From positions 1-39,691 of the IMG/VR virus record IMGVR_UViG_3300017424_000003: 39,691 nt of DNA; one strand, 5' to 3'. The DNA is from a virus. Numbering within the stretch: the stretch's first letter is position 1; each line of letters opens with the position of its first letter. Below are positions 8,985-23,312 of the stretch, piece after piece. The notes below the pieces were generated by a model. It was not told where the DNA came from. It saw nothing but the letters and a program-made list of their open reading frames with translations, and made no database searches. Position numbers and translations under genes: made by a program.

Positions 8985-9003
8985 TCCTTTAGGAGATGAT
9001 GAG

Positions 9004-10227
9004 ATGACCGATACGACAGACCAGCAAGCGGTGACGGTTGCGCAGGACGATGAATGGCATCGCGCTCTGGCAATCAAGCGTTACGCCGATCCCGCCGTGC
9101 AGCGCGTGTCCTACCTTCTCGCTTGTCAGCTTGGCTTGCTCGGAAGGGGGAAGTTGATCGACTTCCACGAAGGGCAGTGCGCCATATCGGCAGCCGAGAG
9201 CATGGTGCAGGATGTTCGGCGAGAAGACGCCCGCCTCGCCTCTGTATCATCCGCGAGTGCAGAACTACCGGGTGACGTGCGCGCGCTGGTGGTCGCGGCG
9301 CGCGAGTTTTGGGATGACGAGAACAGCGGGACGGTTCGAAGCCATGCGCTCGATAAGGCTCTGGAAGCGTTTTCCAGCCGCGTCCCCTATGACGGCGAAC
9401 CCTCCCCCGAACCTGTACCCGCGACCAATCAGGCGGGAGAGGTGGAGGGTCTGGACGCTTACGACGCTGGCCTACTCGGTGATGGGGGCGGTGGCGATGT
9501 CGACTGGTGGCAGAACTATATCCGCGACGAGTTGGAGCGCGCGCATGAGTTCTACAGCGATCAGGTCGCGGGCTTAACTGCGCCGGTCACGACAATGCCC
9601 GAAGCCACAGTGTCCATAGTGGCGCGCACGGTTCGTCAGACCTTGCGCGATTACGGTCATGGCACTGCCGAGAGTTCGTTGCCGGAAACGATCGCGAGTG
9701 AAGTTGCCTCCGCCCTCGCTGCCGTACCGACGCCTTTGATAGTGGATGATCTGTCAGATGCGCTTTACGCATTGCGGCGTCACCTGAACCTCGTCGGCTA
9801 CGCAATCAATGACCGCAATTGGCGCGATACCGAATCCGCTTACAACGCACATCGCGATAATCTCGACGGGATTTTAATTAAGAGACGCCGCGCCGCCCTC
9901 GCTACCCAGCCCGCAACGTCGCAGGAGGGGGAATGGGTGACGGTCCCACGCGAGCCAACACAGGACCAGCTTATTGCCGGGAACGGCATGTTCCACACGG
10001 GCGAAGTGCCGCTCAACATTTACCGCGCCATGATCGCCGCCACCCCGACGCCTCCCACCCTATCGGAGGACTTGCGGGATGTTGCGCGGGATGCCTTGGT
10101 CACTCTCGATAATATCGGAATGCAAGCCGGATTGGCAATTTGCGCCGAGGACGGCACGACGGGCGGGGATGTCCTCACAGTCGTCGAACGCCTCCGCGCC
10201 GCCCTCGCACAGGTGAAGGCATCATGA
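9004..10227 (+). CDS. Large acidic hypothetical protein (407 aa)
   Basis: ORF 8872..10227 trimmed to ATG 9004 after an AGGAG. Modular, with no enzymatic motif recognised. Confidence 0.75.
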   Translation: MTDTTDQQAVTVAQDDEWHRALAIKRYADPAVQRVSYLLACQLGLLGRGKLIDFHEGQCAISAAESMVQDVRREDARLASVSSASAELPGDVRALVVAAREFWDDENSGTVRSHALDKALEAFSSRVPYDGEPSPEPVPATNQAGEVEGLDAYDAGLLGDGGGGDVDWWQNYIRDELERAHEFYSDQVAGLTAPVTTMPEATVSIVARTVRQTLRDYGHGTAESSLPETIASEVASALAAVPTPLIVDDLSDALYALRRHLNLVGYAINDRNWRDTESAYNAHRDNLDGILIKRRRAALATQPATSQEGEWVTVPREPTQDQLIAGNGMFHTGEVPLNIYRAMIAATPTPPTLSEDLRDVARDALVTLDNIGMQAGLAICAEDGTTGGDVLTVVERLRAALAQVKAS

Positions 10228-10571
10228 GCGGGGCTGTCGAAGGGGTGGCGCTGCGTGAGGCGCTTATGGCATGGGAGCCGGACGGGGATGATCGGGTTCG
10301 TCCGCTGTTGCTTGCGGAAGCAGACCGTCGCGACGCGCTCGAATACAACCTCACCGACGCAAACCACGTCATCGCGTTCCTGCTGCATCGCCTAGACGCC
10401 TCCCTCACCACACCCCCAGCGCGGTCCTATGCGGCTGCGATCGAGGACGCGGCGAAGGTGGCGGACGATTACGCACTAGGCGCCCTTGAGGGTGGCGAGC
10501 CGTTAATCGAGGCCACTGCGGAGACGATCGCCGCCGCGATCCGCGTCTTGTCGCAGGAACCCCGCGCATGA
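10224..10571 (+). CDS. Hypothetical acidic protein
   Basis: Trimmed to ATG 10224 (ATGA overlap). 115 aa. Confidence 0.65.
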   Translation: MSGAVEGVALREALMAWEPDGDDRVRPLLLAEADRRDALEYNLTDANHVIAFLLHRLDASLTTPPARSYAAAIEDAAKVADDYALGALEGGEPLIEATAETIAAAIRVLSQEPRA

Positions 10572-10972
10572 AAACCCTCCTAACTTACAAGGGCATAAAA
10601 TACCTGTGCATCGCGGCGGCACTGCCAACGACGGCTGTGGTGACGCACAGGAGCCACAAGCAGATCAACCGTGTTGTGGAGCGCGTGCATCCTAAGCCCG
10701 TCCGTAGGTACGTTGCGGAGGTTCGTAAGCCTATCCCGGCCACCGACCTCCCCATTGCACCCGTCGCAGCCATCGCGACTGCTGAGTGTATCCCTGGAGG
10801 TGGCGGGTTTGCTGGTGGCGGCGGATCTGGAGGCTTTATCGGCGTAGGAGGTGGCGTTATCGGCATAACGCCCATCCCCAGCCCCACGTCGCCCGTTCCA
10901 GAGCCGTCCGGTTGGGCACTTATGATTCTGGGGTTTGGTGTTGTTGGTGGTGTTATGCGGAGGAAGGGGTGA
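10568..10972 (+). CDS. PEP-CTERM (PEPxxWA-type) sorting-signal protein, glycine-rich
   Basis: The C-terminus VPEPSGWALMILGFGVVGGVMRRKG is PEP, then a TM helix, then a basic tail. Hydrophobic N-terminus and a GGGGFAGGGGSGGFIGVGGG tract. Confidence 0.75.
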   Translation: MKTLLTYKGIKYLCIAAALPTTAVVTHRSHKQINRVVERVHPKPVRRYVAEVRKPIPATDLPIAPVAAIATAECIPGGGGFAGGGGSGGFIGVGGGVIGITPIPSPTSPVPEPSGWALMILGFGVVGGVMRRKG

Positions 10973-11199
10973 TGCTGATGGTAAGCCCGCACATCTTAGA
11001 TATCAGGTGGCGGATCGCTGCGGAAGAAAAGGCAGGGCGCATGCCGCCTGCTCAATCCCCTTATGGCAACTGGTACGCGCGCAAACTTGACGACCAATGG
11101 GGCATCATCCAGCATATTAGCGACCGCCTCCAGAACGCGCGATTTGTACCAGTCAGCGATGCTGAATTTGCCGAAGTCAATTCACGCTACCGAGACTAA
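10972..11199 (+). CDS. Hypothetical protein
   Basis: 75 aa from ATG 10972, which shares one nt with the upstream TGA. Last gene of the plus-strand cassette. Confidence 0.6.
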   Translation: MLMVSPHILDIRWRIAAEEKAGRMPPAQSPYGNWYARKLDDQWGIIQHISDRLQNARFVPVSDAEFAEVNSRYRD

Positions 11200-11375
11200 C
11201 CCCCCAACCGCTTCCCAACCTGCCGCACACCCTCATTTTTAGCCGCCTCCACCAAAGCATCCTTGGCCGCATCGAGCGTCAGGGGTGCTTTGGGGTTTTC
11301 TACGATCTTGGCGACGGCTGGGATTAGGACGCGCTTGGCGAACCCAGCGAGCAGCTTTCCGAAGTTGATTTTCAT
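11196..11375 (-). CDS. 59-aa amphipathic protein, last gene of the lysis cassette
   Basis: Not in the track. ATGA overlap with the upstream gene and GC-rich third codon positions. MKINFGKLLAGFAKRVLIPAVAKIV... Confidence 0.45.
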   Translation of the reverse strand: MKINFGKLLAGFAKRVLIPAVAKIVENPKAPLTLDAAKDALVEAAKNEGVRQVGKRLGG

Positions 11376-11605
11376 GGTCGTGTCTCCGTGACTGAAACCG
11401 GGTCTGAGGGCGTACCGGCTGGTTCTGTGCCGCCAGTCTTTGGCCTGAAGGTGCCTAGGACGCCTACAAGGCCGGTCGTAAGGCCACCGAAGCCCAATGC
11501 TTCAGCATACCTCCCTGCATATGCCAGAATGGCCGCTATGGTGGCTAAATAGCAAATCGCGCCGACAAGGGTTGAGAAGGCGATCAGCGAGTGGCGCTCT
11601 GTCAC
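11372..11605 (-). CDS. Two-TM membrane protein downstream of the endolysin
   Basis: 77 aa with two hydrophobic helices. Sits at the spanin position but has no canonical lipobox. Confidence 0.6.
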   Translation of the reverse strand: MTERHSLIAFSTLVGAICYLATIAAILAYAGRYAEALGFGGLTTGLVGVLGTFRPKTGGTEPAGTPSDPVSVTETRP

Positions 11606-12189
11606 AGCGGTAAACCCTTATACACACGCATCTCAGCGGCACGGCGATTGACCAGCCCCTGCATCACGCGCCCGCCCGACTTGTTCCAGGCAGGAAATTG
11701 CGCGGCTGCACCGTCATAATCCGCCGCCTTGTGCTTCTTCAGCAGCGTCGACCCCGTGAAGGCACCAACGCCGATGTTATAGGCGAGCGACACCATGGCG
11801 CCCTTCTGCATGGCCGTAGCGGGTGCCCCATCTAGCGCCTTGTCCACGCCTGCCGCAAACTCCAGTACGTGCGCTGCCAGACGCGCGTCAGCCTGTCCCT
11901 GCGTCCACGTAGCGCCGATGCTGATAAGGCGTCCCTGAGGGTCTGACGTTGACCCCCAACCGATCGTGATAGGCTTCCCACCAGTCCCCGGATCCGGGTA
12001 CGCCGTCAGCTTGCACCCCTCAAACTTCTTGATGAGCGACAACGCGAATGGCAACCAACCCTCAGTGTCTCCGCCGCGCGGCAGGCCGAACATATCCGCC
12101 AGATCGTCTATAGCCGTCACCATCGCAGGCGTGAAGCGGTTGCCGGGTGCGTAGCGGCGGGCGTCAACGAATAGCTCTGCACGTGTCAT
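11602..12189 (-). CDS. Endolysin, glycoside hydrolase family 24 lysozyme
   Basis: LIKKFEGCKLTAYPDPGTGGKPITIGWG carries the catalytic E/D/T region. ...AMVSLAYNIG... and ...GLVNRRAAE are also typical. Confidence 0.9.
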   Translation of the reverse strand: MTRAELFVDARRYAPGNRFTPAMVTAIDDLADMFGLPRGGDTEGWLPFALSLIKKFEGCKLTAYPDPGTGGKPITIGWGSTSDPQGRLISIGATWTQGQADARLAAHVLEFAAGVDKALDGAPATAMQKGAMVSLAYNIGVGAFTGSTLLKKHKAADYDGAAAQFPAWNKSGGRVMQGLVNRRAAEMRVYKGLPL

Positions 12190-12509
12190 CCCCGGCTCCT
12201 ATCTTCTTTCCAACGCCCATTCATTGCAGCCATTTGCGCATTGGCGCGATCATGCCGCCATTTACGGTAAGCGGCGCCACTGAGGAACAGCACAACGCCA
12301 TAGGTAAGAAGGGTTATCGACCAACCCTCGAATGGGCTACCGTTGCGCTCCCAGATAATAGCCACGGTCAGAAAGCTACCAGACCCAGCCATCGCCAATC
12401 CGACCCGCTCGACAGCGATCGTCATATGGCGATATTTGGTTATCAGAATGACGGAAACACATGTTAGCAACACGCGGCCTAATGAATTGAGAATATCCCA
12501 AAAGATCAT
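12186..12509 (-). CDS. Holin-like membrane protein (3 TM)
   Basis: 107 aa and hydrophobic. Immediately upstream of the endolysin and ATGA-coupled to it. Confidence 0.65.
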   Translation of the reverse strand: MIFWDILNSLGRVLLTCVSVILITKYRHMTIAVERVGLAMAGSGSFLTVAIIWERNGSPFEGWSITLLTYGVVLFLSGAAYRKWRHDRANAQMAAMNGRWKEDRSRG

Positions 12510-12814
12510 TCCGTCTCCCCCTTCAGGCCGAGCATGAGAATGAGCTTCTTACGTATCAGTGGCATAAGGCCGATGCCGAACGCCGACCCAAAGAATGTCG
12601 TGCCGCAAGCAACGCGTATAGGAGTGATATCGACGTGGAACATATCAGCCACCACCAGAGGAACGCCAAAGACACCAAAAAACGTGCCGACGACTAAAGC
12701 AAAGGCAATCTCTCGCCAATGCATCGCTTTCCATGGGAGGGACCAGACTGACACAATGGCGCCGCCTATAGCTGCCATAGCGATAAGAATGATACGACGG
12801 CTATCTTCATCCAT
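12506..12814 (-). CDS. Holin-like membrane protein (3 TM)
   Basis: 102 aa and hydrophobic. Confidence 0.65.
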   Translation of the reverse strand: MDEDSRRIILIAMAAIGGAIVSVWSLPWKAMHWREIAFALVVGTFFGVFGVPLVVADMFHVDITPIRVACGTTFFGSAFGIGLMPLIRKKLILMLGLKGETE

Positions 12815-13323
12815 TACGACCTAGCCACCTTGCTAACATTTCCCAAGGCTTGTGGGGAAGTGCGCTCCAACCGATAAAGGCCAAGCAGACTACGCAACCG
12901 ATCTGAAACACCTTTACCTCCTAGCAGCAAAAACACCGCCACCTGTGCTAATAGCATTTTGTCCAGCCAAAAGGTGTAATTTTCGTCTGACAATTGGCCC
13001 CGAGATGAATGCATTCCGATTTGTGTCATGCAAAGCATATAGACGGCCCAGCCCCACCAACGGAAACGCCCCGTCACTAGGGCCAGAACGCCCACAGACA
13101 GATCCGCGATCGTCCACAGGTCTACAGCCGATGTAGGAACGCCCTGCGCTCTCAGCCATGCTTGTGGCGAGGCGGCGACGTAAGTCCATTCGACGAAGCA
13201 CCAGTTAAGCACGATCCCCGCTGCAAGAACGAATGCAGCAAGGCGCTGGCCTACCGGGGCATGAACGGCAAACACCACCGCCCCTAAGCATAGCCCCAAA
13301 TAGATCAGCGCCTCGCCGGACAT
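12814..13323 (-). CDS. Polytopic membrane protein of unknown function
   Basis: 169 aa with 4-5 hydrophobic helices. TAATG-coupled. Confidence 0.65.
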   Translation of the reverse strand: MSGEALIYLGLCLGAVVFAVHAPVGQRLAAFVLAAGIVLNWCFVEWTYVAASPQAWLRAQGVPTSAVDLWTIADLSVGVLALVTGRFRWWGWAVYMLCMTQIGMHSSRGQLSDENYTFWLDKMLLAQVAVFLLLGGKGVSDRLRSLLGLYRLERTSPQALGNVSKVARS

Positions 13324-13427: not shown

Positions 13428-13438
13428 GTTCTATACTC

Positions 13439-15280
13439 CTATCGTGTCGCCAAGACTGAAATGTCATGCGCGGGCACAGCAATATCAGCAGTGGTCATGT
13501 TGGTATAGGTGATCGTTAGCGTTTCAGCAGCCGAAACCTTACCACGAACGAACACGCCATCAGGGAAACCACCAAAGTCCACCGGCTCGACGCGGATGCT
13601 GTCGCCCTGAACGGTGCCGATAACCGGCGTAATCGTCGTGATTTTGGTTTGCCCCGGCGTCAGCGTGCCGATGTTGTTGACAGAGCTGCCACCCGTGCTC
13701 CACCGATGGCCGATGCTGTTGACGGCGAACCCGGTTGCGCTGTTGGGCAGGACGCCGCCCATAGTGGTGTTGGCCTTGAACGCGCCGTTGGTGCCACCGG
13801 TTGCCTTGAACACGTTGCCGCCGATTGCGGAATCCACAACATCGCCGCCCGAGCTTTCATAGAAAGGCGCGGTCCCGGTATTACCGGAAAAGAAATTACC
13901 GTTGATAGCTAGGCCGGACGTGGGCACTGGCTGCATGTCACTACCCAACACAGGACCGCCGCGTGTAACCTCGATCAATGGTTTGTTGGTGGTACCCAGC
14001 CCGTCGCCGTTGTTGCCGATTATAACCAGACCCTGCGCAGAGCGGGCGCGGACGATCTGATTGACCTTCTCAAACGTGTTGTTGGCAATGTTGATGTTGC
14101 GCAACTGATACGGCAGCGTATCGATACCCTCAAAGAAAACAGCGGTACGTGACGGCGACCAGATCGTGTTCTGCGAGGCAATGAAGCCGTCAAGGTTATA
14201 GGCAAGTATGCACTGGACCGCGATACCGTAGAAATCGTTGTCGATCACACGGACGTTGGTTACGAAATCGGACGCCGCACCCGTACCAAATGCGAGACAC
14301 TCCAGCGCGGTAACGTCGAACAGGTTGCCCTGGATTAGAACGTCATCGCCACGCTGGATGTTGATGGCCTTGTTCTGTGGCGTGGCAAACAGGCAGCCTC
14401 GAATGCGGATCGTGTTGCACTGGCCAGCCGCATAGGTGACGTTGACCAGTGATCCACCCGAACCGCCACCACCATTGGCACGAAGCACCATGTTATCGAG
14501 TGCGATCGAGGCGCCCTGCGCGATCGGCTCGACACGGAACAGATCCCGCGATGCGGTCTGCTGCTGGATACGAGCGCCGCTGGAATATTCGCAGTTACCT
14601 TCGCCTACCATGCGCAGGCTGCGGGTGATCTTAATGGCGTCGTCAACAAGGAACAGTCCCTGCGGAAACGTTACCTCGCCAGCGCCAAGGTATGGCGTGT
14701 TGGACGAAAACTGGTCGAAGCGGGTGTTGTACTCGATTTCGCTGACCGCGTCCTGAATTGCATCGGTATCGATCGCAATGCCATTGCCGACCGCACCAGC
14801 GCGTGACAGCGACTTTTCCATGATGCCGGACGTACCAGCGCCACGGTCGAAGATGTCGATCAAGCCCTTCTCGACGGTCGGGCGAACCGTGCTGGCGATG
14901 CCTGTCGCGTTCTGCCGCACAAGCGATCCCGGCACACCAGTAAACAGGCCATCCGCCTCGTTAGGATCGCCCACCAGATAGGCCACCGACAGCCCAGAAC
15001 CCTGCAACGCCAGAACCGTGCTAAACGTGTTCTCAGCCGTCTGCGCACCGGACTGAACCCAGCGGCCCGACTGCAATGGCGTGAAGCCATCGGGGCGGAT
15101 GACGGTCTTGCCGTTGTCGTTGGCAAGCGAACTGGCGTCGAACGTGAAAAGGCCAGATCCCGTTACCAGGATTGCCGCTTCGTCATTCATTTCATACGGT
15201 GAAACACCACGCAGCTCATTGATGCTGCGGACTTGCATAAGGTTCCCAGGGAACCGGAGTGTCGGATTGTTACCAAACAT
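13439..15280 (-). CDS. Tailspike with right-handed beta-helix (pectate-lyase-fold) depolymerase domain
   Basis: 613 aa. Repeated beta-helix rungs: INIQRGDDVLIQGNLF, VRVIDNDFYG, INIANNTFEK, VIIGNNGDG, AINGNFFSGN, IGGNVFKA. Confidence 0.8.
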   Translation of the reverse strand: MFGNNPTLRFPGNLMQVRSINELRGVSPYEMNDEAAILVTGSGLFTFDASSLANDNGKTVIRPDGFTPLQSGRWVQSGAQTAENTFSTVLALQGSGLSVAYLVGDPNEADGLFTGVPGSLVRQNATGIASTVRPTVEKGLIDIFDRGAGTSGIMEKSLSRAGAVGNGIAIDTDAIQDAVSEIEYNTRFDQFSSNTPYLGAGEVTFPQGLFLVDDAIKITRSLRMVGEGNCEYSSGARIQQQTASRDLFRVEPIAQGASIALDNMVLRANGGGGSGGSLVNVTYAAGQCNTIRIRGCLFATPQNKAINIQRGDDVLIQGNLFDVTALECLAFGTGAASDFVTNVRVIDNDFYGIAVQCILAYNLDGFIASQNTIWSPSRTAVFFEGIDTLPYQLRNINIANNTFEKVNQIVRARSAQGLVIIGNNGDGLGTTNKPLIEVTRGGPVLGSDMQPVPTSGLAINGNFFSGNTGTAPFYESSGGDVVDSAIGGNVFKATGGTNGAFKANTTMGGVLPNSATGFAVNSIGHRWSTGGSSVNNIGTLTPGQTKITTITPVIGTVQGDSIRVEPVDFGGFPDGVFVRGKVSAAETLTITYTNMTTADIAVPAHDISVLATR

Positions 15281-15366
15281 TGTCGTTCCTCGGGTATCCT
15301 GATACCGTGTCAGGTATGCGGTTTATCATCAAATGGTCGACGGGGCTATTCCTCATGTATTGGTTC

Positions 15367-18057
15367 CTACCGTCGATTCTGTTTCTTATCTTCCGCTGCG
15401 GCTCTTGTGGGTAGCGCCTGCTGAAGCGCCCGCTGCACGGGAAGGATGTCGTTAGCTATGGCTGGCTCCCGAGCTGCGATAGCCGACAGACGCCGTGCTG
15501 CATTCGCCAAGCCTTCAGGCCCGGATGCAGGCCGAGCAAGCCAGCGAGCGAAGCGCGGTGATGCCAGCAACTGACCAGTCAACATCTGCCCAACAGCGCC
15601 CGCTGCCGCCGATACTGGCGATACAGCCCCGATGCCAAGCAATGCGCCGACGTTGGTAGCGACAGCGCCACCAGTGTTGGAACGGTTCGCGTAGCCCGCC
15701 GCCGCCTTCGTGCCTTCAGTAATACGCGCTAGATCATTCAATGCATCACGCGCCTCGCCACGAAACAGCACATCTTTGGCGCGCGGTGTCATCTGGTTCC
15801 ACTGCGTCAGGAACGCAGCGGGCGAGAATGCCGTACCTTCCGCGTTTTGAGCGCCGTTGGTGGCACGCCCAAGCTGGCTGATGACGGTAGCACGGACGCT
15901 CGCCTGATCTTCAGCAGGTAGCGTATCCATGAACCGGCGTAGCCTAGCGGAATCGCTACGGCTGGCATTCTGTAGGTTCTGATAGACGCGCTCTGGGGCA
16001 TACGCCTTCTCGTTACGTCCACCGATGATCGGCTTGATAACTTCGTCGATCGTTTCGACGCGCTCACGGTGTGCGCGATCCGCTGCCAAGAACCTAGCGC
16101 GTGCGTCTGCTGGCAATCCGTTGGCAATGTCTTCCGAAATGGAATCCAGCACCTGTCCTGCGCGACGCTGAAAGTCCGTGCCGCGAAGTTCGTCAGTCTG
16201 TGCCAGTCCGCGCACGTTGGTGCGAAGACGGCGCAGGCCATCTACCGACAAGCCACCGGGGGCAGTAAGATCCCCGCCCAAGCGCTCCAGCGCGTTAGTG
16301 ACAGGCGCGCTAGTACCCGGCGTTTCTGCCAACTCGCGAAGGTTATTGTCCAGCGTGTCGATTGCCCGCTGTGCCGTAGGGCGAACATCACCAGCCGCAC
16401 TACGCGCCTCGTTATACATTCCTCCAACACGCTCGCGCGATTGACGGATATACGTCGCGGCACCACGCTGCGCGGTTTCGCCCGCCGCGACCGGCTGCTC
16501 TACGGCACCGACACCAGCAGCGACACGATCGCGGGCGGCACCAATCTGGTCAGACACGCGCTGTCCGCCCCGAATAACCGGACCGGACGACAACGGAGCC
16601 TGCGCCGCGCCTGACGTGAAACGCCGCGTCAATGGACCGCCCACGTCGGCTGGCAATGGCTCTACGCCCTGCCGCCCTGCCGCCTCCATAAGCTGCTGAC
16701 CCGGCCCAGGGGGCACCGGACCACCGCCACCACGCCCAGCCAGATACTGAGCCGCACGTCCGCCCGCATAACCCAGCGCGCCACCCGCTAGCGCGTTACC
16801 GCCTGCTGCAATAAGGCGAGAAGAGGTATCGCCGTAGCTGTCATTATAGCCGTAGGCGGCACCGATGCCCGCACCGTTGCGAGCCAAGTTGGCCGCACTG
16901 GTGCCTCCAACGATGGGGACTGCAAGCCCACCGAGAACCTGTCCCCCAAGCCGAGCAACACCGTTGTTCTGTTGGTCATAAAGATCGTATCCCCTGCGTC
17001 GGTTTAGATTTTCGTTATAGGTGCCATCACCGCCTACCGTGTCGACGACTGCGCCAATGCGGTTGACGAGGCCAAGCGAGCCAGCGTTGGCGACACCGCG
17101 CGCAAACGCGCCTGCCGTACCGTCACCGGGATCGACCGGCTTGGCTTCGATGCCCGAATAATCAACGCCGTAGCCCGTGCCCCCGCCTGCGTAATATTCC
17201 GACAGCTTTGCGGCATTCTCCTGTGATAGCTCGCCCGCACCATAAAGCGCGTAACGCTGGCGGATGGCATCAGGCGACGGCTTCGTAAGCAGAAACGCTT
17301 TGTAGTCCGCATCCTGCTGCGGGTTGAGGCGATTGACGCCAGACTGCGTGGGGGCAAGCTGGTCGTTAAAAGCAAGAGTTCCGCGATCTTCAGGTGCGGC
17401 ACTACGCAGAGCATTAACCTGATCCGCACCACGCCCAGCGCCGATACCAAAGCTTTCGATAATGCGCTGTCGTGCGCGACGCTTTTGCTCGATAACCTCT
17501 GGCCCTTCGTTGGGCTGCGGGAAGAACGTCTTTTCCTGCTTGTCAAATTCCTGCGGCGAGATGGCAGCGCCCGATTCATAGCGCAAACTAGCGGCGATGA
17601 AGTCGCGCTTAGCCTGCTCAGCCTTCTGGCGCTCAGGACTAGTGAAAGCGTTGGTAACACCTTCCGGTAGAATGTCTGCCGCAGCCTGACCTAATAGCCC
17701 ACGCGGCTCCGTAGCCACTCCGCTGGCTTCGAAGTCACGGTTGGCACCCAGCGCACGGTTATAGAAAGCGGTTGTCTTGCCTTCATTTTCGGTCAGACGG
17801 GTTTCGTTGGTCAGCTTACGTGCATCCAGAGCAGCCTGTCGCTCTGCCGCTGCTGCCGCACGGTTAGCAGCAGCATCCGCGCGCTGTGCCGACTGATCAG
17901 CTCGCTGGTCGGAATTAACAGAAAGCTGGAAACGCGCCTGCTCCATCGGATCGATAGGCTTCGGACCGCCATAGATACGCGCGGGCGGCTGGCCCTGCTG
18001 CGACTGCTGCGACTGCTGCGCCGGGATAAGGTCTGCGAAAGGATTGTCTTGCGCCAT
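15367..18057 (-). CDS. Large internal virion / DNA-ejection protein
   Basis: 896 aa, Ala/Gly/Gln-rich. Occupies the position of P22 gp20/gp16. Confidence 0.8.
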   Translation of the reverse strand: MAQDNPFADLIPAQQSQQSQQGQPPARIYGGPKPIDPMEQARFQLSVNSDQRADQSAQRADAAANRAAAAAERQAALDARKLTNETRLTENEGKTTAFYNRALGANRDFEASGVATEPRGLLGQAAADILPEGVTNAFTSPERQKAEQAKRDFIAASLRYESGAAISPQEFDKQEKTFFPQPNEGPEVIEQKRRARQRIIESFGIGAGRGADQVNALRSAAPEDRGTLAFNDQLAPTQSGVNRLNPQQDADYKAFLLTKPSPDAIRQRYALYGAGELSQENAAKLSEYYAGGGTGYGVDYSGIEAKPVDPGDGTAGAFARGVANAGSLGLVNRIGAVVDTVGGDGTYNENLNRRRGYDLYDQQNNGVARLGGQVLGGLAVPIVGGTSAANLARNGAGIGAAYGYNDSYGDTSSRLIAAGGNALAGGALGYAGGRAAQYLAGRGGGGPVPPGPGQQLMEAAGRQGVEPLPADVGGPLTRRFTSGAAQAPLSSGPVIRGGQRVSDQIGAARDRVAAGVGAVEQPVAAGETAQRGAATYIRQSRERVGGMYNEARSAAGDVRPTAQRAIDTLDNNLRELAETPGTSAPVTNALERLGGDLTAPGGLSVDGLRRLRTNVRGLAQTDELRGTDFQRRAGQVLDSISEDIANGLPADARARFLAADRAHRERVETIDEVIKPIIGGRNEKAYAPERVYQNLQNASRSDSARLRRFMDTLPAEDQASVRATVISQLGRATNGAQNAEGTAFSPAAFLTQWNQMTPRAKDVLFRGEARDALNDLARITEGTKAAAGYANRSNTGGAVATNVGALLGIGAVSPVSAAAGAVGQMLTGQLLASPRFARWLARPASGPEGLANAARRLSAIAAREPAIANDILPVQRALQQALPTRAAAEDKKQNRR
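17995..18021. repeat. 3 x 9-bp tandem repeat (CTGCTGCGA)
   Basis: ctgctgcga ctgctgcga ctgctgcgc, encoding QQSQQSQQ at the N-terminus of the 896-aa protein. Confidence 0.8.
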
Positions 18058-18338
18058 TATTTACTGCCCCTGCGCCCGAAATACGGGACTTTTCCGTAAC
18101 CCGGCAATGTAACGTGTACGTGATCGCCCTCATCTAGATACCGCGCTTTGTTACCAAAGTAACCACGCAATGCGCCTACCGATGTATTAGCGTAATCGAC
18201 GCCATCGCCTGTTAAGTGGTGCGATGTAGCCACGCCGCCGACTGCGCGATTGCCCGCAACTGTGCGACGACCGCTAGTCATCGTGCCTGGAGCGCCGTTG
18301 ATATCAGGGAAACGTCGCGCCCCCTTGCGAGGGCGCAC
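18057..18338 (-). CDS. Peptidase M15 (zinc D-Ala-D-Ala carboxypeptidase-like) domain, start unresolved
   Basis: [28 protein letters not shown]...DHVHV carries the SxHxxGxAxD / DHxH motifs. Possible starts are GTG 18338 (SD abuts it), ATG 18281, or a +1 shift from the upstream ORF. Confidence 0.65.
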
Positions 18339-19020
18339 CTCCCTGCATCTGACGAAGGCGAGCGTAAACAGCGCTCGGATCTGCACCGGCTGCGATTGCC
18401 TGTGCTGCCATCGCCTCCAGGTTGGCGCTGCCACCGGCTTGTGGGCGAGGCTGGGCTTGCGGCTGCTGCTGTGGCTCACCAGCACCACCCAACGGCACAC
18501 CCTGCGCGTTGAAACCCTGAAGGTAACCACCAGCCGGAATAACCTTGTAATCGACCTGCTGCTGCTTCAGATATTCGCTGGCTTTGCCCGCCTGCGCGAT
18601 GATCGCGGCGCGAGACTCAGGCGAGAACTGCCCGATGAACTTTGCTGCTTCAGGGTGCCCCTGCTGCACATACTGCTGGGCATAGGCGTCCCACTTTTCT
18701 GGCGTGTCGGCCAATAGCGCGATCTGGCCCAAGTCCTCGATCTGCTGGAGGGCCTCCTTGTGTCCGACCTCGCCAGCTTTGGTGGCAAAGCCCGCATAAT
18801 CGAAGTCCCCACCAGCCGCAGCGGTTTGAGCTGCGCCCTGATAGTTACCCTGGCCAAGCTGCTGCGATGCCTGCTGACGCGCAGCTAGAACCTGCTGCAT
18901 CTCCTGCTGCTTCAACGCCATCTGCTGACGCTGCATACCCTGCTGCTGCGCCTGCCCGAACGTCTGCAACGCCTCCAGTGCGTTGAAGCCCGGTCCCTGA
19001 AGCCCCCATTGAACAGCCAT
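18304..19020 (-). CDS. Gln-rich internal virion / ejection protein
   Basis: 238 aa. TAATG-coupled to the upstream gene. Confidence 0.75.
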
Positions 19021-19730
19021 TAGAAGCCCCTAAAATTAAGCATGCCGTTCGGTAGCGTGCTGCCGATAGCTGGACCCTGCGCCTGCTGGCCATAGCTTGA
19101 TGCCAGCCCCCCACCAGCATAAGCGCTGCCGATGTTGGCAAGGTTCTGCAATGCGCCCGACCATGCAGCACCACCAGCGAGCGCGCCATTAGACGCTGCA
19201 TCCGCTGCGTTCTGACTCGACTGGTTGATGTTGTTGACCGTGTTGGTAGCGGCACCGGCAACCTGCCCGATAGCCTGCTGACCCTGGCTAGAGAGGTTCT
19301 GAAGGCCATTCAGCCACGAACCCGACGACTGATCCGCCAGTGCCTGCCCCTTGGCCTGTAGCGCCTTTAGAGTGGCACCAGACGCCCCCAGGCCGCGTGC
19401 ATAGGCGTTGGAGTTAACCGCGCCCTGCCCGGTGTTGAGCAAGTCCTGATACCCGGTCGAGCCGCGATAGGTGGCAAGTGCCGCCTGCGCCCCGCTATCG
19501 CCCTGCGTTCCCAGAAAACCGCCGATAAGATTGCCAGCCGCATTACCGCGATCGATCGTCGGCTGGTTGAGTCCGGTGATATACTGCTGGTTCTGCTGTA
19601 GGCGCTGCTGCTCGGACTGCGCCTGCTGTTGCTGCCTCTTGGATGCCTTGCTAGCAGCACTGGACTGGATGGCCCCACCGATAAGCGACCCGCCTGCTGC
19701 GACGCCTGCTGCAATGACTACTGGTGGCAT
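19020..19730 (-). CDS. Internal virion / ejection protein with N-terminal TM segment
   Basis: 236 aa. MPPVVIAAGVAAGGSLIGGAI, followed by a Gln/Asn/Gly-rich region. Confidence 0.75.
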   Translation of the reverse strand: MPPVVIAAGVAAGGSLIGGAIQSSAASKASKRQQQQAQSEQQRLQQNQQYITGLNQPTIDRGNAAGNLIGGFLGTQGDSGAQAALATYRGSTGYQDLLNTGQGAVNSNAYARGLGASGATLKALQAKGQALADQSSGSWLNGLQNLSSQGQQAIGQVAGAATNTVNNINQSSQNAADAASNGALAGGAAWSGALQNLANIGSAYAGGGLASSYGQQAQGPAIGSTLPNGMLNFRGF

Positions 19731-20159
19731 CTAGAGACCTTCCGTTACGAAATACTGCACATCACCGGCAATCATATCCTTGCCAAAGCCAACAGACTTC
19801 AACCCCATGCGTCTGATATAACAAATCGCAGCGCGGTTGTACACTGACGGTTGCCCCCAGACGGTATGCGCGCCCTCTTTGCGAACATAAGCCAGCATAT
19901 CGCGTCCGGTCTGCATTGCATGGGCGCCACGTGCATCTTTGCGGACCATCAGATGGCACTCATAGATACCCGGCCCACGCCATACGAACATCGCTACAAA
20001 CCCGCCGTCTATCAGGACGATGTTGCGCGGATCTTCGCACCAAGGCGTGAAATCCAGATGGTCGGGCGGATACATTGCGCCAAGGAACATCAGCGCACGC
20101 ACGGACGGATCATTGCCAATCTCGTTTACGCGCTCTGCATCGGTTACGCGCTCGATCAT
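19731..20159 (-). CDS. GNAT-fold acetyltransferase-like protein
   Basis: HLMVRKDARGAHAMQTGRDMLAYV fits GNAT motif A (R/Q-x-x-G-x-G/A), and NRAAICYIRRMGLKSVG is also typical. ATGA-coupled to the needle gene, and TAG-ATG adjacent to the next gene. Confidence 0.65.
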   Translation of the reverse strand: MIERVTDAERVNEIGNDPSVRALMFLGAMYPPDHLDFTPWCEDPRNIVLIDGGFVAMFVWRGPGIYECHLMVRKDARGAHAMQTGRDMLAYVRKEGAHTVWGQPSVYNRAAICYIRRMGLKSVGFGKDMIAGDVQYFVTEGL

Positions 20160-20815
20160 ACTAGCGGCAACTGTTCATCACGCGGGCGCACGAACCCAGG
20201 ACGTTGCGGACCTTCGCCACCCTCAACCGTGCCAGTTGTCGGGATCACGACAGCGCCAACAACGTGCGTCGAATTGGTCTGCGCTGGGGGCGTGGTCGTA
20301 ACTGCGTAGGTGACGTTGCCACCCTCGCGCGGTGCGTCGTTGTATGTCACGTAATCCGTGTCCCCTTCTCCGGTCGCGGTCACCGTTCCGCCCGCTACCG
20401 ATACGCTTGTAGAAGGTCCACCAGTAGCAGACGGATAGATGCGCGTGTGCGGCGCAATGGTGATCGTCGTGGGGCTCGCGCTTAGAACAGACGTTGGATC
20501 GATGTAGCTGGCCTGTAGGGACGCCTCACGGGCGTTTGCAGCAGCTTGAGCCGCCGCCGCCGCCGCTGCTGCCGAGCTGTCCCCCGCCGCTGCATTCGCC
20601 GCGTCTGCCGCTGCCTGTGCGGCCTGCGTGGCTGCGTCCAGATTGGCAAGCGCCTCCTGGATAAATGGCAACTGCTGGATCTGCACGACGGCATCGCCCA
20701 GCGACTTCAGGATGTCGTTAAGCGTGCGCAGGAAGTACGTGGTCGGCTTGCGATCGGTTTCCACGATCGGTTGCGCCTGCGTTAGCGTTGGGATGCGTAA
20801 GGGTTTTAACGCCAT
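20156..20815 (-). CDS. Tail needle / plug-like protein (P22 gp26 position)
   Basis: 219 aa. An Ala-rich coiled-coil segment is followed by a beta-rich C-terminus. Lies directly after the gp10-like gene. Confidence 0.6.
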   Translation of the reverse strand: MALKPLRIPTLTQAQPIVETDRKPTTYFLRTLNDILKSLGDAVVQIQQLPFIQEALANLDAATQAAQAAADAANAAAGDSSAAAAAAAAQAAANAREASLQASYIDPTSVLSASPTTITIAPHTRIYPSATGGPSTSVSVAGGTVTATGEGDTDYVTYNDAPREGGNVTYAVTTTPPAQTNSTHVVGAVVIPTTGTVEGGEGPQRPGFVRPRDEQLPLV

Positions 20816-22134
20816 GCTTGATTCGCAGCAGCACCAGCCAACCGAATGCGCTCCGGTCCGACATGGCTAATCTCAACCGTGCGATAGGGCTGCTCAGGCC
20901 GTCCCAAACGATAGAGCGAGCAAACATCGAACGGCGCACGCACGTCTAGCACGTCGTAATAGTCGGGGTAATCATCCTGACCATCCTTCCACCGAATGCG
21001 GATAGTGGTGTCGCCAGATGCGCCCATGCCCACAGAGATATTATCGTTGCGCTGAGGCTTCCCAAACAGCGCGATCGTGCCGGTAATAACCTTCTCGATC
21101 ATGCGTCCGTCATCCGTGCCGTTAGCTGGATCCAGGCGCCACACAGCGCCATCAACAGACGATCCACAGAATACCGAACCTTGACGGTCATATCCGACAC
21201 GGGCGTCCCATTCGGTACGTCCTGACGTAGCGAACTCGGACCACGCCTGCGTTGATGCGTCGTAAGCAAAAGAACCCTGTCCCGGTATGTTCAGGACGTA
21301 GAACTTGTGGCCGTCTAGACCGAACACCCAGGCGGATAGATCACCCCCCTTCTTACGAATGCGCTCAGCGATGCCGTTATCGCTGACGACTTGGGGAACT
21401 GCGCCACCACGACACACCTCGCCATCATTTGACACCCACATGACCGAATTGTCAAATCGCTTTACCGTGTCCCTCGCTAAACAGCCGCGTTCATAGATGC
21501 GGCCCGTGACGCGCTGGAACGGGGCGTCGACGTCCCCCGTCGACTGCCACGGCTCGATCGTGTCTTCAGAGAAAATCCAGAACTCATCGCCTACACGGCG
21601 GATGGCCACAGCCTTATCCGGCGAAAACTCAGCCGTTGCGAAGTCGAGCGGGTCAACCGTCGTCGCGCCGGGAACCATCCAGTAAAACTTGCCCGAACGC
21701 GTCAGAATCAGCAGGTATTGGTTGATCTGCTCGATATCCACCACCGTGCCCGCATCGTCGGGCAAAGCTAGAGTGGCGATTGTCGTCCCATAAAGGTACA
21801 ACGCCGACCCGCCTAAGATCGCATAAACGAACGTCGTCCCGACCATCGGCGTAATACCTGTGCCAGCGATTGCACCTTTGGCTATACCAGCGGCGTACAA
21901 CTGCCCGCCAGACACCGCCAGATCCTCGTCAGTCGACACCCGGTAGTCCATGCCCCGGATAGGGCCTGAGCCTAATGTGCGGGTGCGCGTGAGACCAGGG
22001 CGCTGGATACGTAGCGTTCCATCGGGCGAGATGCCGGACTCGTCCTTCTCCACATATAAATTGCGCAGGATTGTCTCGGGAACGAAACCGTCCGTGCGCT
22101 GGTAGGATTTCAGGCCGAGTGGGACGATTGGCAT
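20806..22134 (-). CDS. P22 gp10-like tail / packaged-DNA stabilisation protein
   Basis: ORF 20806..22275 trimmed to MPIVPLGLKSY... (ATG 22134). Size, N-terminus and the ...SFAYDASTQAWSEF... region resemble P22 gp10. Confidence 0.8.
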   Translation of the reverse strand: MPIVPLGLKSYQRTDGFVPETILRNLYVEKDESGISPDGTLRIQRPGLTRTRTLGSGPIRGMDYRVSTDEDLAVSGGQLYAAGIAKGAIAGTGITPMVGTTFVYAILGGSALYLYGTTIATLALPDDAGTVVDIEQINQYLLILTRSGKFYWMVPGATTVDPLDFATAEFSPDKAVAIRRVGDEFWIFSEDTIEPWQSTGDVDAPFQRVTGRIYERGCLARDTVKRFDNSVMWVSNDGEVCRGGAVPQVVSDNGIAERIRKKGGDLSAWVFGLDGHKFYVLNIPGQGSFAYDASTQAWSEFATSGRTEWDARVGYDRQGSVFCGSSVDGAVWRLDPANGTDDGRMIEKVITGTIALFGKPQRNDNISVGMGASGDTTIRIRWKDGQDDYPDYYDVLDVRAPFDVCSLYRLGRPEQPYRTVEISHVGPERIRLAGAAANQAWR

Positions 22135-22138
22135 GGAT

Positions 22139-23302
22139 TCAATTCCAAAGGTTCTTGACCGTGCGCCAGAATTCGGTCGCCTTAGTCGCGCTCCAACTGT
22201 CCTTAGCGTATTCCTGCTTGAAGTTATAGGTGTCTGCCCATGCGGAACCGCCACCCCATGCAAGCACGCCTGCAACCGTGTCCGGGTATTCCTTCACCAG
22301 CGCAGTGAATTCCTCCAGCCATGCCTTGCCGTTAAACTCTGGCACGCCGGAGCCATTCGACAGCCAGCCACGCGCACCACCACCTAGGCCAATCTCGGTA
22401 ATCCAGATGCGCAGGCCGCGACGCTTGAACTCGTCAAACATTTCCCTGAAGTTTGCAGCGACAGCCGAACCCTTGATCTGGGGTGCGTTCTTGCCCGTCG
22501 ATGGCTGGTCGTTGCCAGTCGTGGTCGGGTAATGGTGCGCAGAGAACTCCAGCTTTCCCAGAGGATCTATCTCGCCAACAGCGTCCAGTTCGGTCAAGGC
22601 GCGCTTGTATCCACCCACAGCGTTCCAGCCGCCCCAGCCTAGAATGATTGGGTATGTGATGCCCGCCGCACGGATGCCCTGGATAAGTGCCTTGCTGTCT
22701 TCTGCGTAGGTAGGCGACCATCCGCCGCTGCTGGTTTCATTCTGAAGTTCCAGCGTGATAAGGTCGTTCGGGCCGTAGGTATCCATCAGCTTCTTGCTGA
22801 GTGCGGTCCAGAACGGCAGCAGTTCCGGATTGCCCATCGCGGAATAGGTATGATCGTCAATCACAACCGCCACGTCTTCAGCCAGCGCAAAGTCGATGAT
22901 CGTCTTGAGCGCCAGCCACTGCTTAGTAGGGTAGCCGTTGAGCGAAATAGCATCCTGGATCACACCGTCACGCCACAGCAGGCTCCGCTTGATCGGGATG
23001 CGGATAGCCCGCGCACCGCCGTCAAACACGTAAGGCGCGATGAAACGCGGCACGTCCTCGTAGTATCCGTTGCGGCTGTTGCTCAGCGAAGTGCCGTTAC
23101 GCTGCTTTGGCTTAACAGGCGGCACAGGAGTTTCCGCACCCGGCAGACGCTCGCGCCAGTCATTGGTATAGGCATGGCCGCTGGGCGTCAGGCCCAGGTA
23201 GAAAAGGAACTTTCCGCCAAACTTCTCGCGGTTAACGGGAGTGGTGACCGAGATCACATCGTCGCCATCATCGCGGAAGGCTTTTGCTAAGTAGAAGATC
23301 AT
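22139..23302 (-). CDS. Virion-associated glycoside hydrolase family 5-like glycanase
   Basis: Trimmed to MIFYLAK (ATG 23302, AAGGA SD). GH5 landmarks are VVIDDH, LELQNE (acid/base), SAHHY and WITEIG (nucleophile). Confidence 0.75.
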   Translation of the reverse strand: MIFYLAKAFRDDGDDVISVTTPVNREKFGGKFLFYLGLTPSGHAYTNDWRERLPGAETPVPPVKPKQRNGTSLSNSRNGYYEDVPRFIAPYVFDGGARAIRIPIKRSLLWRDGVIQDAISLNGYPTKQWLALKTIIDFALAEDVAVVIDDHTYSAMGNPELLPFWTALSKKLMDTYGPNDLITLELQNETSSGGWSPTYAEDSKALIQGIRAAGITYPIILGWGGWNAVGGYKRALTELDAVGEIDPLGKLEFSAHHYPTTTGNDQPSTGKNAPQIKGSAVAANFREMFDEFKRRGLRIWITEIGLGGGARGWLSNGSGVPEFNGKAWLEEFTALVKEYPDTVAGVLAWGGGSAWADTYNFKQEYAKDSWSATKATEFWRTVKNLWN

Positions 23303-23312
23303 CGGATCATCC

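What the first reader, a model, noticed from the sequence alone, without database searches (positions are those of the whole stretch)
10568..10972. Phage-encoded PEPxxWA-CTERM (exosortase substrate) glycine-rich protein
The 134-aa product ends VPEPSGWALMILGFGVVGGVMRRKG. This is a PEP motif, a TM helix and an Arg/Lys tail, with the PEPxxWA spacing I associate with sphingomonad-type alphaproteobacteria. PEP-CTERM proteins need a host exosortase and are linked to exopolysaccharide-producing envelopes. The phage encodes no exosortase, so the protein would use the host sorting machinery. The same phage carries three polysaccharide-directed tail enzymes. The protein could therefore remodel or mask the EPS-associated surface, for example for superinfection exclusion or receptor masking. 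I am not aware of characterised phage-borne PEP-CTERM cargo. It also provides a host clue.
Basis: partly seen in the sequence, partly recalled or inferred. Interest (0 to 1): 0.65.

Follow-up and report, generated by a model that had tools for sequence, protein, structure and literature searches.

The report
Phage-encoded PEP-CTERM sorted envelope protein
A complete 39.6-kb phage genome carries a small, selectively maintained gene whose product has a secretion signal and a bona fide bacterial PEP-CTERM (exosortase) sorting tail, so the phage probably sends one of its own proteins through the host's surface-protein sorting pathway; its function is untested.

Summary
ORF 10568..10972 (+) encodes 134 aa ending VPEPSGWALMILGFGVVGGVMRRKG. 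It scores 47.2 bits on NCBIfam PEPxxWA-CTERM (cutoff 35) and passes the generic PEP-CTERM models. The gene is real: its ends overlap both neighbours, and mean dN/dS is 0.17.

The window is a circular 39,568-bp tailed-phage genome. I found no integrase and no exosortase-like multi-TM ORF. It has three carbohydrate-active tail proteins.

The protein belongs to a tiny family, about 30 clusters among 1.84 billion representatives. Every context I inspected is phage-like, across at least three genome architectures. Only this gene is shared between those neighbourhoods, and three close relatives lack it. It is therefore a mobile accessory gene.

The PEP motif is the best-conserved segment (70% identity to distant members). 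The basic passenger segment is the least conserved (15%), and the structure model suggests disorder.

Best reading: Sec export, then capture by the host exosortase, delivering about 87 residues to the envelope or EPS layer. This parallels T5 Llp and prophage-borne SasX, which use other host sorting signals. The biological role is inferred: exclusion, surface remodelling or exosortase interference. The sphingomonad host clue is weak, because a control gave a similar taxon mix.

The parts
10568..10972 (+). Gene for the 134-aa PEPxxWA-CTERM protein (stop codon 10970-10972)
   Evidence: ORF list and sequence; HMM hits above the curated cutoffs; 21 homologues; mean dN/dS 0.17.
10568..10636 (+). Residues 1-23, a predicted Sec signal peptide. 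The n-region holds K2, K8 and K11. The h-region is L13-A23 (LCIAAALPTTA) and contains the invariant C14. A T-x-A|VV site resembles a signal peptidase I site.
   Evidence: Hydropathy peaks at 1.7-1.9 over residues 14-20. '[GT][TA]A|VV' is conserved across the family. There is no lipobox: K-Y-L precedes C14. This is a heuristic reading; no dedicated predictor was available.
10637..10738 (+). Residues 24-57, a strongly basic segment (pI 11.7, net charge +7). It is the least conserved part of the family.
   Evidence: composition; 15% identity to distant members.
10739..10795 (+). Residues 58-76, an Ala/Pro/Ile-rich hydrophobic segment that includes the family-wide second cysteine, C74 (segment ends C74-I75-P76).
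   Evidence: C74 is invariant in A1 and at least 90% conserved in A3 by alignment column. By eye, every member has a cysteine just before the Gly-rich run.
10796..10867 (+). Residues 77-100, the glycine-rich stretch GGGGFAGGGGSGGFIGVGGGVIGI.
   Evidence: G80 and G83 invariant; G84-86, G92, G94 and G95 at least 90% conserved; 47% identity to distant members; AlphaFold2 pLDDT below 50.
10868..10894 (+). Residues 101-109, the Pro/Ser/Thr linker TPIPSPTSP. It varies in length and sequence between members.
10895..10969 (+). Residues 110-134, the PEPxxWA-CTERM sorting domain: VPEPSGWA motif, hydrophobic helix LMILGFGVVGGVM, and basic end RRKG at the extreme C-terminus.
   Evidence: NF035944 aligns 1-24/24 to residues 110-133. 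P111 and E112 are invariant and P113 is at least 90% conserved across 18 members. 17 of 18 members hit NF035944. This is the most conserved segment of the protein.
10224..10571 (+). Upstream gene of the same operon (115 aa from the ATG at 10224). Its stop overlaps the start of the PEP-CTERM gene (ATGA). It is diverged in relatives (34-38% identity).
10972..11199 (+). Downstream 75-aa gene, the last of the rightward operon. Its start overlaps the PEP-CTERM stop (TGATG). Its 3' end overlaps by 4 nt the 3' end of the convergent lysis-cassette gene 11196-11375.
11196..13323 (-). Context: a convergent lysis cassette. It holds a 169-aa 3-TM protein, the holin (12506-12814), a 107-aa TM protein, the endolysin (11602-12189), a 77-aa TM protein and a 59-aa cationic peptide. 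No Rz/Rz1-type spanin pair was found.
   Evidence: PHROGs hits for endolysin (1e-49) and holin (2.5e-5); TM scan; lipobox scan negative in this region.
13439..25730 (-). Context: a tail module containing three carbohydrate-active proteins, namely a beta-helix/pectate-lyase-like protein (13439-15280), GH5 (22139-23443) and SASA esterase + fn3 (23313-25730).
   Evidence: Pfam; PHROGs tail and connector hits.

Best explanation
The gene is an accessory ('moron'-like) gene that moves among several lineages of tailed phages. It sits in the rightward, non-structural (presumably early) operon, so I infer expression before the late genes.

Proposed route of the product:
1. The 134-aa precursor is exported by Sec, and the 23-residue signal peptide is removed.
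2. The protein is held in the inner membrane by its C-terminal PEPxxWA-CTERM helix.
3. The host exosortase recognises and cleaves that tail, as it does for host PEP-CTERM proteins.
4. A passenger of about 87 residues is released to the envelope or exopolysaccharide layer. It is basic, then Gly-rich, then Pro/Ser/Thr-rich, and largely disordered.

The most likely use is to alter the infected cell's EPS-associated surface. That could block adsorption or entry of further phages, or change how EPS is retained. In this it resembles other phage proteins that carry a host sorting signal.

Shown: a real, selected, phage-borne gene; a sorting domain above the curated cutoffs at the extreme C-terminus; an N-terminus with signal-peptide features; no phage exosortase.

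Inferred: export, processing by a host exosortase, final location, time of expression and biological role.
For: - HMM membership above the curated cutoffs, with the full-length profile aligned at the C-terminus.
- The PEP motif is kept in all 18 diverse members; 17 of 18 hit NF035944. It is the most conserved segment, at 70% identity to distant members, against 15% for the basic passenger segment.
- Purifying selection: mean dN/dS 0.17.
- The N-terminus has three lysines, an 11-residue hydrophobic core with Pro at its end, and a conserved TxA|VV site.
- The window is a complete circular phage genome with terminase, portal, capsid, tail and lysis genes. I found no integrase and no ORF with 4 or more TM segments.
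- The family lies in phage-like contigs of at least three architectures, and only this gene is shared between the neighbourhoods.
- No homologue of the passenger turned up in 185,579 representative bacterial and archaeal genomes. Only 10 cluster representatives matched among 1.84 billion proteins.
- The published working model for PEP-CTERM proteins is Sec export, membrane tethering by the tail, removal by exosortase, and association with EPS (PMC12188702).
- Precedents for phage genes that use host sorting signals: T5 Llp lipoprotein (PMC9586334) and prophage-borne LPXTG protein SasX (PMC7047976).
Against: - The host is unknown, so the presence of an exosortase cannot be checked.
- No experiment shows export or cleavage.
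- Several distant members carry 5-70 residues after the basic cluster (P0019-P0030). This is atypical for a C-terminal sorting signal, and suggests at least some members may act as uncleaved membrane proteins.
- The N-terminal hydrophobic segment, with its invariant Cys14, is unusually well conserved for a disposable signal peptide (51% identity).
- The passenger is low-complexity with no confident fold (pLDDT 48) and no match in Pfam, PHROGs, PADLOC or PDB. Nothing points to a specific surface activity.
- Close relatives lack the gene, and carriers have unrelated tailspikes. That argues against a role tied to this phage's own receptor.
Confidence: 0.5

Rival explanations
1. The protein is an exosortase decoy or inhibitor. 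It engages the host exosortase as a pseudo-substrate, and what matters is the engagement, not the delivered passenger. By competing with or jamming the enzyme, it stops host PEP-CTERM proteins from being sorted. That loosens the attachment of EPS or floc matrix around the infected cell and helps progeny escape.
For: The two membrane-proximal elements are the most conserved parts (PEP motif 70%, TM 54%, N-terminal h-region 51%). The passenger's basic segment drifts to 15% identity and is predicted to be disordered. C14, within the N-terminal hydrophobic segment, is invariant. Members with long C-terminal extensions still keep the PEP motif. PEP-CTERM proteins are reported to stabilise the EPS-cell association (PMC12188702). 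The phage invests in three glycan-active tail proteins.
Against: There is no direct evidence. An 11-residue h-region with a TxA|VV site looks cleavable rather than a stable second anchor. Surface proteins and EPS already in place would persist through a single lytic cycle. The Gly-rich stretch and C74 are also conserved, so the passenger is not free to vary.
Confidence: 0.2
2. It is an inner-membrane superinfection-exclusion or injection-blocking protein that simply uses the C-terminal helix as a permanent anchor, like T4 Imm or P22 SieA-type proteins. The PEP-CTERM resemblance would then reflect ancestry, not current exosortase processing.
For: The gene sits in the non-structural operon, among small ORFs of unknown function. 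It has accessory, mobile distribution. Distant members have cytoplasmic extensions of up to about 70 aa after the helix, conserved between P0021 and P0022. This fits a stable bitopic protein.
Against: A plain anchor would not need an invariant P-E and a conserved Trp three residues after the PEP motif (PEPxxW). Yet 17 of 18 members still score on the PEPxxWA-CTERM model, and this is the best-conserved segment. The window protein ends one residue after the profile, as true substrates do.
Confidence: 0.15
3. It is a lysis accessory protein, either a unimolecular-spanin-like or a holin-like factor. The N-terminal signal and the C-terminal inner-membrane helix would let it act on the envelope at the end of infection. 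This would replace the Rz/Rz1 pair that this phage seems to lack.
For: The gene lies about 220 bp from the end of the lysis cassette, and no spanin pair or lipobox ORF was found there. Its size and its N-terminal signal plus C-terminal TM topology resemble the T1 gp11 u-spanin (from my own knowledge).
Against: There is no lipobox: K-Y-L precedes C14, and the hydrophobic stretch follows rather than precedes the Cys. The gene is on the opposite strand, in the non-structural operon. In L003 and L026 no lysis gene was recognised among the neighbours scanned. Close relatives with the same lysis cassette lack it. A conserved 59-aa cationic peptide at the end of the cassette is a better candidate for outer-membrane disruption.
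Confidence: 0.05
4. It is not a functional gene product of interest. The tail would be a chance PEP + hydrophobic + basic pattern, or the coding frame would be the antisense ORF 10585..10992.
For: An antisense ORF of equal length exists, and GC3 does not discriminate between the two. Antisense frames stay open in the homologues.
Against: The HMM score is 12 bits above the curated cutoff. The sense frame has the lowest dN/dS of six frames, and the antisense ORF shares wobble positions. There is start/stop coupling with both neighbours. The family-wide alignment preserves the signal peptide, both cysteines and the PEP motif.
Confidence: 0.02

Closest known systems
Bacterial PEP-CTERM / exosortase (XrtA/EpsH) substrates, PEPxxWA-CTERM variant (NCBIfam NF035944; TIGR02595; Pfam PF07589)
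   Same: N-terminal signal-peptide-like region. [quoted passage not shown] A Pro/Ser/Thr-rich stretch before the tail. A tripartite tail (PEP motif, hydrophobic helix, Arg/Lys cluster) at the extreme C-terminus that scores above the curated cutoffs.
   Different: It is encoded by a phage, not by a bacterial genome that also carries an exosortase and many paralogous substrates. It is a single copy per genome. The passenger is very small (about 87 aa). The sorting signal and signal peptide are more conserved than the passenger. Distant family members have extensions after the basic cluster.
Phage T5 Llp and similar phage lipoproteins (Cor, TP-J34 Ltp) that mediate superinfection exclusion
   Same: A small phage-encoded envelope protein that carries a host-type sorting signal and relies entirely on host export and sorting machinery. 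For T5 Llp, the phage is virulent and the protein is made shortly after infection (PMC9586334 and bioRxiv 10.64898/2026.03.26.714494). In the window, early expression is inferred only from the gene's position in the non-structural operon.
   Different: The signal here is a C-terminal PEP-CTERM domain (exosortase), not an N-terminal lipobox (Lgt/Lsp/Lol); the lipobox test is not met. There is no sequence similarity. No receptor target is known. The exclusion function is untested.
Prophage-borne sortase substrate SasX (LPXTG surface protein on a staphylococcal prophage)
   Same: Phage-carried cargo with a C-terminal tripartite sorting signal that is processed by a host transpeptidase-type sorting enzyme (PMC7047976).
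   Different: SasX is Gram-positive, uses sortase/LPXTG, and sits on a temperate phage where it serves host colonisation. Here the setting is Gram-negative-type, the signal is PEP-CTERM, and the phage has no integrase that I could find.
Unimolecular spanin (T1 gp11 type)
   Same: Similar size. An N-terminal export signal plus a C-terminal inner-membrane helix. Proximity to lysis genes in this window.
   Different: No lipobox. Opposite strand, in the non-structural operon. Not linked to recognisable lysis genes in the other phage types. Absent from relatives that share the same lysis cassette.

Membership tests
PEP-CTERM / exosortase substrate (PEPxxWA-CTERM variant) | C-terminal tripartite domain (PEP motif, hydrophobic helix, basic cluster) that scores above the family's curated cutoff | tested here: met
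   NF035944 47.2 bits against a cutoff of 35; TIGR02595 19.3 against 16; PF07589 26.6 against 20.7. 17 of 18 family members hit NF035944.
PEP-CTERM / exosortase substrate (PEPxxWA-CTERM variant) | The domain lies at the extreme C-terminus | tested here: met
   The profile ends at residue 133 of 134. This holds for the window clade only. P0019-P0030 carry 5-70 extra residues.
PEP-CTERM / exosortase substrate (PEPxxWA-CTERM variant) | N-terminal Sec signal peptide | tested here: inconclusive
   Three lysines in the n-region, an 11-residue hydrophobic core (hydropathy 1.7-1.9), and a conserved TxA|VV site all fit. No dedicated predictor was run, and the segment is unusually conserved.
PEP-CTERM / exosortase substrate (PEPxxWA-CTERM variant) | An exosortase (Xrt/EpsH) is encoded in the same cell | not testable with these tools
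   The phage has no ORF with 4 or more TM segments. The host is unknown: there is no prophage copy in the GTDB representatives, no tRNA, and tail similarity is not taxon-specific.
PEP-CTERM / exosortase substrate (PEPxxWA-CTERM variant) | Exosortase-dependent removal of the tail and export beyond the inner membrane | not testable with these tools
   This needs an experiment.
Unimolecular spanin | N-terminal lipoprotein signal with a lipobox ([LVI][ASTVI][GAS]C) | tested here: not met
   The residues before the invariant C14 are K-Y-L (K-M-L in distant members). The hydrophobic run follows the Cys.
Unimolecular spanin | Part of the lysis cassette and co-inherited with it | tested here: not met
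   It is on the opposite strand. No recognisable lysis neighbours in L003 or L026. L033, L035 and L036 share the cassette but lack the gene.
Phage superinfection-exclusion lipoproteins (Llp/Cor/Ltp) | Lipobox-dependent sorting, and sequence similarity to a known member | tested here: not met
   No lipobox. No PHROGs, Pfam or PADLOC hit other than the PEP-CTERM tail. The resemblance is functional analogy only.

The most novel reading that the evidence does not exclude
Phages have evolved a dedicated, horizontally mobile mini-protein whose functional core is the exosortase recognition signal itself. It would act as a viral pseudo-substrate that hijacks or blocks the host exosortase. This would rewire how exopolysaccharide and matrix proteins are attached to the infected cell. 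If so, it would be the first viral effector aimed at the exosortase pathway, and a natural minimal (about 87-residue) probe for an enzyme whose chemistry is still unresolved.
Probability: 0.2. Interest if true: 0.8.

Novelty: new variant of a known kind. Interest (0 to 1): 0.55.

Why it matters
Exosortase/PEP-CTERM sorting is widespread in EPS- and floc-forming Gram-negative bacteria. It remains poorly understood: the acceptor, the cleavage chemistry and the route across the outer membrane are all unresolved (PMC12188702).

This phage family is small, selectively maintained and carries a canonical tail. It shows that viruses tap this pathway, as they are known to tap the lipoprotein and sortase pathways.

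It also offers a minimal natural substrate or competitor for experiments. It suggests a way for phages of EPS-embedded bacteria to alter the host surface during infection. And it could serve as a marker that the unknown host has an exosortase system.

Tried and rejected
- **Cultured phages.** Megablast of 8000-14000 and tblastn of the protein against 50,697 phage records found no match. The tailspike found no match. The SASA tail protein matched only through its domain, to actinophage tail proteins, which says nothing about the host.
- **Host via prophages.** A scan of GTDB representative genomes found only a tail-only match in a Rubrivivax MAG.
- **Host via tRNAs.** None in the window or in five related loci.
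- **Host via tail similarity.** The 34-aa tail hit five plasmids, all Sphingomonadales. The second tail type hit nothing. A betaproteobacterial control tail hit 8 of 13 Sphingomonadales plus Burkholderiales and Methylomonas. I therefore rejected this as a specific host signal.
- **Host via capsid.** The capsid protein points loosely to alphaproteobacterial elements: Paracoccus, Caenibius, Rhizobium and Brucella. The nearest cultured phages infect Pseudanabaena, at 36% identity or less.
- **Tail-only search of the 5.8-billion-protein database.** The first query was too short; the second found no candidates. One search was wasted.
- **Structure.** AlphaFold2 with the 22-sequence alignment gave pLDDT 48 and pTM 0.12. 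I ran no fold search, because matches would be meaningless.
- **Passenger homology.** PDB gave only Gly-linker noise. PADLOC and PHROGs gave nothing.
- **Literature.** No paper holds the term PEPxxWA-CTERM, and none mentions the sample accessions. A broad search on PEP-CTERM with viral terms was uninformative.
- **Lipoprotein or u-spanin reading.** Rejected for lack of a lipobox.
- **GC3 frame test.** It did not discriminate between strands. I replaced it with six-frame dN/dS.
Full report
**1. The observation**

The ORF is at 10568..10972 (+). It encodes 134 aa ending VPEPSGWALMILGFGVVGGVMRRKG.

| Model | Score (bits) | Curated cutoff |
|---|---|---|
| NCBIfam NF035944 PEPxxWA-CTERM | 47.2 | 35 |
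| TIGR02595 PEP_CTERM | 19.3 | 16 |
| Pfam PF07589 PEP-CTERM | 26.6 | 20.7 |

- The NF035944 profile aligns over its full length (1-24) to residues 110-133, one residue from the end.
- A six-frame scan for PEP + hydrophobic + dibasic tails finds only this one in the window.

The coding strand needed checking, because an antisense ORF of 135 aa (10585..10992) exists and GC3 does not discriminate.
- The start overlaps the upstream stop (ATGA) and the stop overlaps the next start (TGATG).
- Pairwise dN/dS against six homologous genes is 0.04-0.30 at dS 0.3-0.6, with mean 0.17, the lowest of all six frames.
- The antisense ORF shares third-codon positions with the gene and has mean dN/dS 0.24. It is a shadow ORF.

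**2. The genome around it**

The first and last 123 bases of the window are identical, so this is a circular or terminally redundant genome of 39,568 bp.

Functions found:
- DNA helicase, primase and VapE-like protein.
- YqaJ recombinase and HNH endonuclease.
- Terminase large subunit, portal and major head protein.
- Head-closure and tail proteins.
- Endolysin and holin.

Other points:
- I found no integrase among the ORFs I scanned, and no tRNA.
- No ORF has four or more hydrophobic segments, so the phage has no exosortase, which is a polytopic (multi-TM) membrane protein.
- The phage is distant from cultured phages. There is no nucleotide match. Capsid identity is 36% or less and terminase 46% or less, both to Pseudanabaena phages.

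The gene is the penultimate one in a rightward operon of small, overlapping genes (about 7385-11199). That operon converges on the 3' end of the lysis cassette. The last genes of the two operons overlap by 4 nt, and no terminator-like site lies between them.

**3. The family**

A search of 5.8 billion proteins found 21 homologues, all metagenomic and unnamed, several on contigs of 39-48 kb.

A profile of the passenger alone (tail removed) was read against 1.84 billion cluster representatives. It found only 10 at E <= 1e-3. The family is very small.

Every member has the same layout:
- an N-terminus of the form K..YLC.AA...TAVVTH;
- a basic stretch;
- a second cysteine;
- a Gly-rich run;
- a Pro-rich linker;
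- [VI]PEP[SA].W, then a hydrophobic helix and a basic cluster.

Of 18 diverse members, 17 hit NF035944 and all 18 hit some PEP-CTERM model.

Identity of the window protein to the eleven distant members, by segment:

| Segment | Identity |
|---|---|
| PEP motif | 0.70 |
| C-terminal helix | 0.54 |
| Signal-peptide core | 0.51 |
| Gly-rich run | 0.47 |
| Basic segment | 0.15 |

- AlphaFold2 with the family alignment gives pLDDT 48, which suggests disorder or that the fold cannot be predicted.
- The passenger has no match in Pfam, PHROGs, PADLOC or PDB.

**4. Where the family lives**

- The window type recurs in several contigs with the same lysis cassette (L001, L002, L005-L009).
- P0021 lies in a 47.6-kb contig with a Mu-like portal and a different terminase (L003).
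- P0028 lies in a 53-kb contig densely packed with small same-strand ORFs, plus RecA and a DEAD helicase (L026).
- Between these neighbourhoods the PEP-CTERM gene is the only shared gene.
- Within the window type, the flanking upstream genes are only 28-38% identical or replaced, and the tailspikes are unrelated. The PEP-CTERM gene stays at 70-91%.
- Three relatives with 72-80% identical endolysins (L033, L035, L036) have no copy within 6 kb of the cassette. They were also not picked up by the family-pattern scan of IMG/VR.
- No copy of the passenger occurs in 185,579 representative bacterial and archaeal genomes.

So this is a phage-restricted, mobile accessory gene under purifying selection. 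It is not a recent capture of a host gene.

**5. Anatomy and likely mechanism**

*N-terminus.*
- Residues 1-23 have three lysines, an 11-residue hydrophobic core ending near Pro20, and a conserved [GT][TA]A|VV site.
- This fits a cleavable Sec signal better than a stable transmembrane anchor. No dedicated predictor was available, so this step is inferred.
- There is no lipobox before the invariant Cys14.

*Mature passenger (residues 24-110).*
- Overall pI is 10.4.
- The N-terminal third carries a net charge of +7.
- The remainder is hydrophobic and Gly-rich, followed by TPIPSPTSP.

*Known model.* In the published working model, PEP-CTERM proteins are exported by Sec and tethered by the tail. 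The exosortase then processes them, and they associate with EPS at the cell surface (PMC12188702).

*My reading.* The phage protein follows this route in the infected cell, using the host enzyme. Its purpose is not shown. By analogy with T5 Llp and prophage SasX, a surface or envelope role is the most economical guess: superinfection exclusion, masking, or altered EPS retention.

**6. What does not fit neatly**

- The sorting signal and the signal-peptide core are more conserved than the passenger. This is the reverse of ordinary secreted families.
- Cys14 lies inside the presumed signal peptide yet is invariant.
- Distant members have 5-70 residues after the basic cluster. The extension is conserved between P0021 and P0022.

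These points keep two rivals alive. One is a pseudo-substrate that competes with or blocks the exosortase. The other is a permanently anchored inner-membrane exclusion protein.

A lysis (u-spanin-like) role is unlikely:
- There is no lipobox.
- The gene is on the opposite strand from the lysis cassette.
- No lysis genes were recognised among its neighbours in the other phage types.
- It is absent from relatives that share the same cassette.

**7. Host clue**

- The 34-aa tail hits only five plasmids, all Sphingomonadales, three of them annotated PEPxxWA-CTERM.
- A control tail from the Rubrivivax MAG also hits mostly Sphingomonadales (8 of 13), together with Burkholderiales and Methylomonas. 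Aquabacterium, a member of Burkholderiales, carries an annotated PEPxxWA-CTERM protein. The plasmid database therefore biases the result.
- Capsid similarity to elements in Paracoccus, Caenibius (Sphingomonadales), Rhizobium and Brucella and 58% G+C are compatible with an alphaproteobacterial host.

The host is not established.

**8. Novelty**

- Full-text searches found no characterised phage-borne PEP-CTERM protein. The only mention is a passing domain annotation in a Dehalococcoides mobile element.
- No paper holds the term PEPxxWA-CTERM.
- Phage genes that exploit host sorting signals are known for lipoproteins and sortase substrates.

This is therefore a new variant of a known kind: a new phage protein family that uses a third host sorting pathway. 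Interest is moderate. It would rise if the exosortase-targeting reading proves right.

Noticed in passing
window 1-123 and 39569-39691: The first and last 123 bases are identical. The window is therefore a circularly closed or terminally redundant complete phage genome of 39,568 bp.
   Followed up: yes
window 11196-11375 (-): The last gene of the lysis cassette encodes a 59-aa cationic peptide that looks amphipathic by eye (MKINFGKLLAGFAKRVLIPAVAKIVENPKAPL...). It is 78-95% conserved in relatives, and a 57-aa version is present in L035. No Rz/Rz1-type spanin pair or lipobox ORF was found nearby. It may be a disruptin-like outer-membrane-disrupting peptide.
   Followed up: partly
L026 9172-9582 (+): Two genes upstream of the family member in a 53-kb phage-like contig lies a 136-aa ORF with Pfam Ion_trans_2 and a canonical K+ selectivity filter (TATSTGYGD). 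This is a phage-encoded minimal potassium channel.
   Followed up: no
L035 8989-9696 (-): A close relative that lacks the PEP-CTERM gene encodes, in the equivalent non-structural operon, a 235-aa protein with a clear signal peptide (MKYLFLTLTLLSAPATA|QV). By eye it looks like an outer-membrane beta-barrel protein; I ran no family search. It may be a different envelope 'moron' in the same operon.
   Followed up: no
L008 10001-10222 and L009 2-325 (contig Ga0265798_10001222): The gene spans the two ends of a 40.6-kb contig, so the assembly is circular. The gene combines the N-terminal sequence type of one subgroup with the linker and tail type (PEPSKWALMIFGFGGIGGVMRRRKL) of another. This suggests recombination within the gene between passenger and sorting-signal modules.
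   Followed up: partly
P0021, P0022, P0025 (L003 10001-10624): Some distant members continue for about 60-70 residues past the basic cluster of the PEP-CTERM domain. The extension is conserved between P0021 and P0022 but unrelated in P0025. This would be an added cytoplasmic domain, which is unusual for a C-terminal sorting signal.
   Followed up: partly
window 11196-11199: The rightward operon and the leftward late/lysis operon end in convergent genes whose 3' ends overlap by 4 nt. No terminator-like hairpin lies between them, so transcription from the two sides would collide or read through as antisense.
   Followed up: no
window 10585-10992 (-): There is a 135-aa antisense ORF as long as the gene itself. 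It shares wobble positions with the real frame and stays open in most homologues. It is a shadow ORF of a GC- and Gly-rich gene and could mislead gene callers.
   Followed up: yes
L029 (NZ_CP081845.1, Caenibius sp. WL plasmid p1): This 38-kb circular 'plasmid' of a Sphingomonadales isolate encodes terminase, N4-gp56-type capsid, packaged-DNA stabilisation proteins, an integrase and HicAB. It looks like a phage or phage-plasmid, and is only distantly related (33% capsid identity) to the window phage.
   Followed up: no
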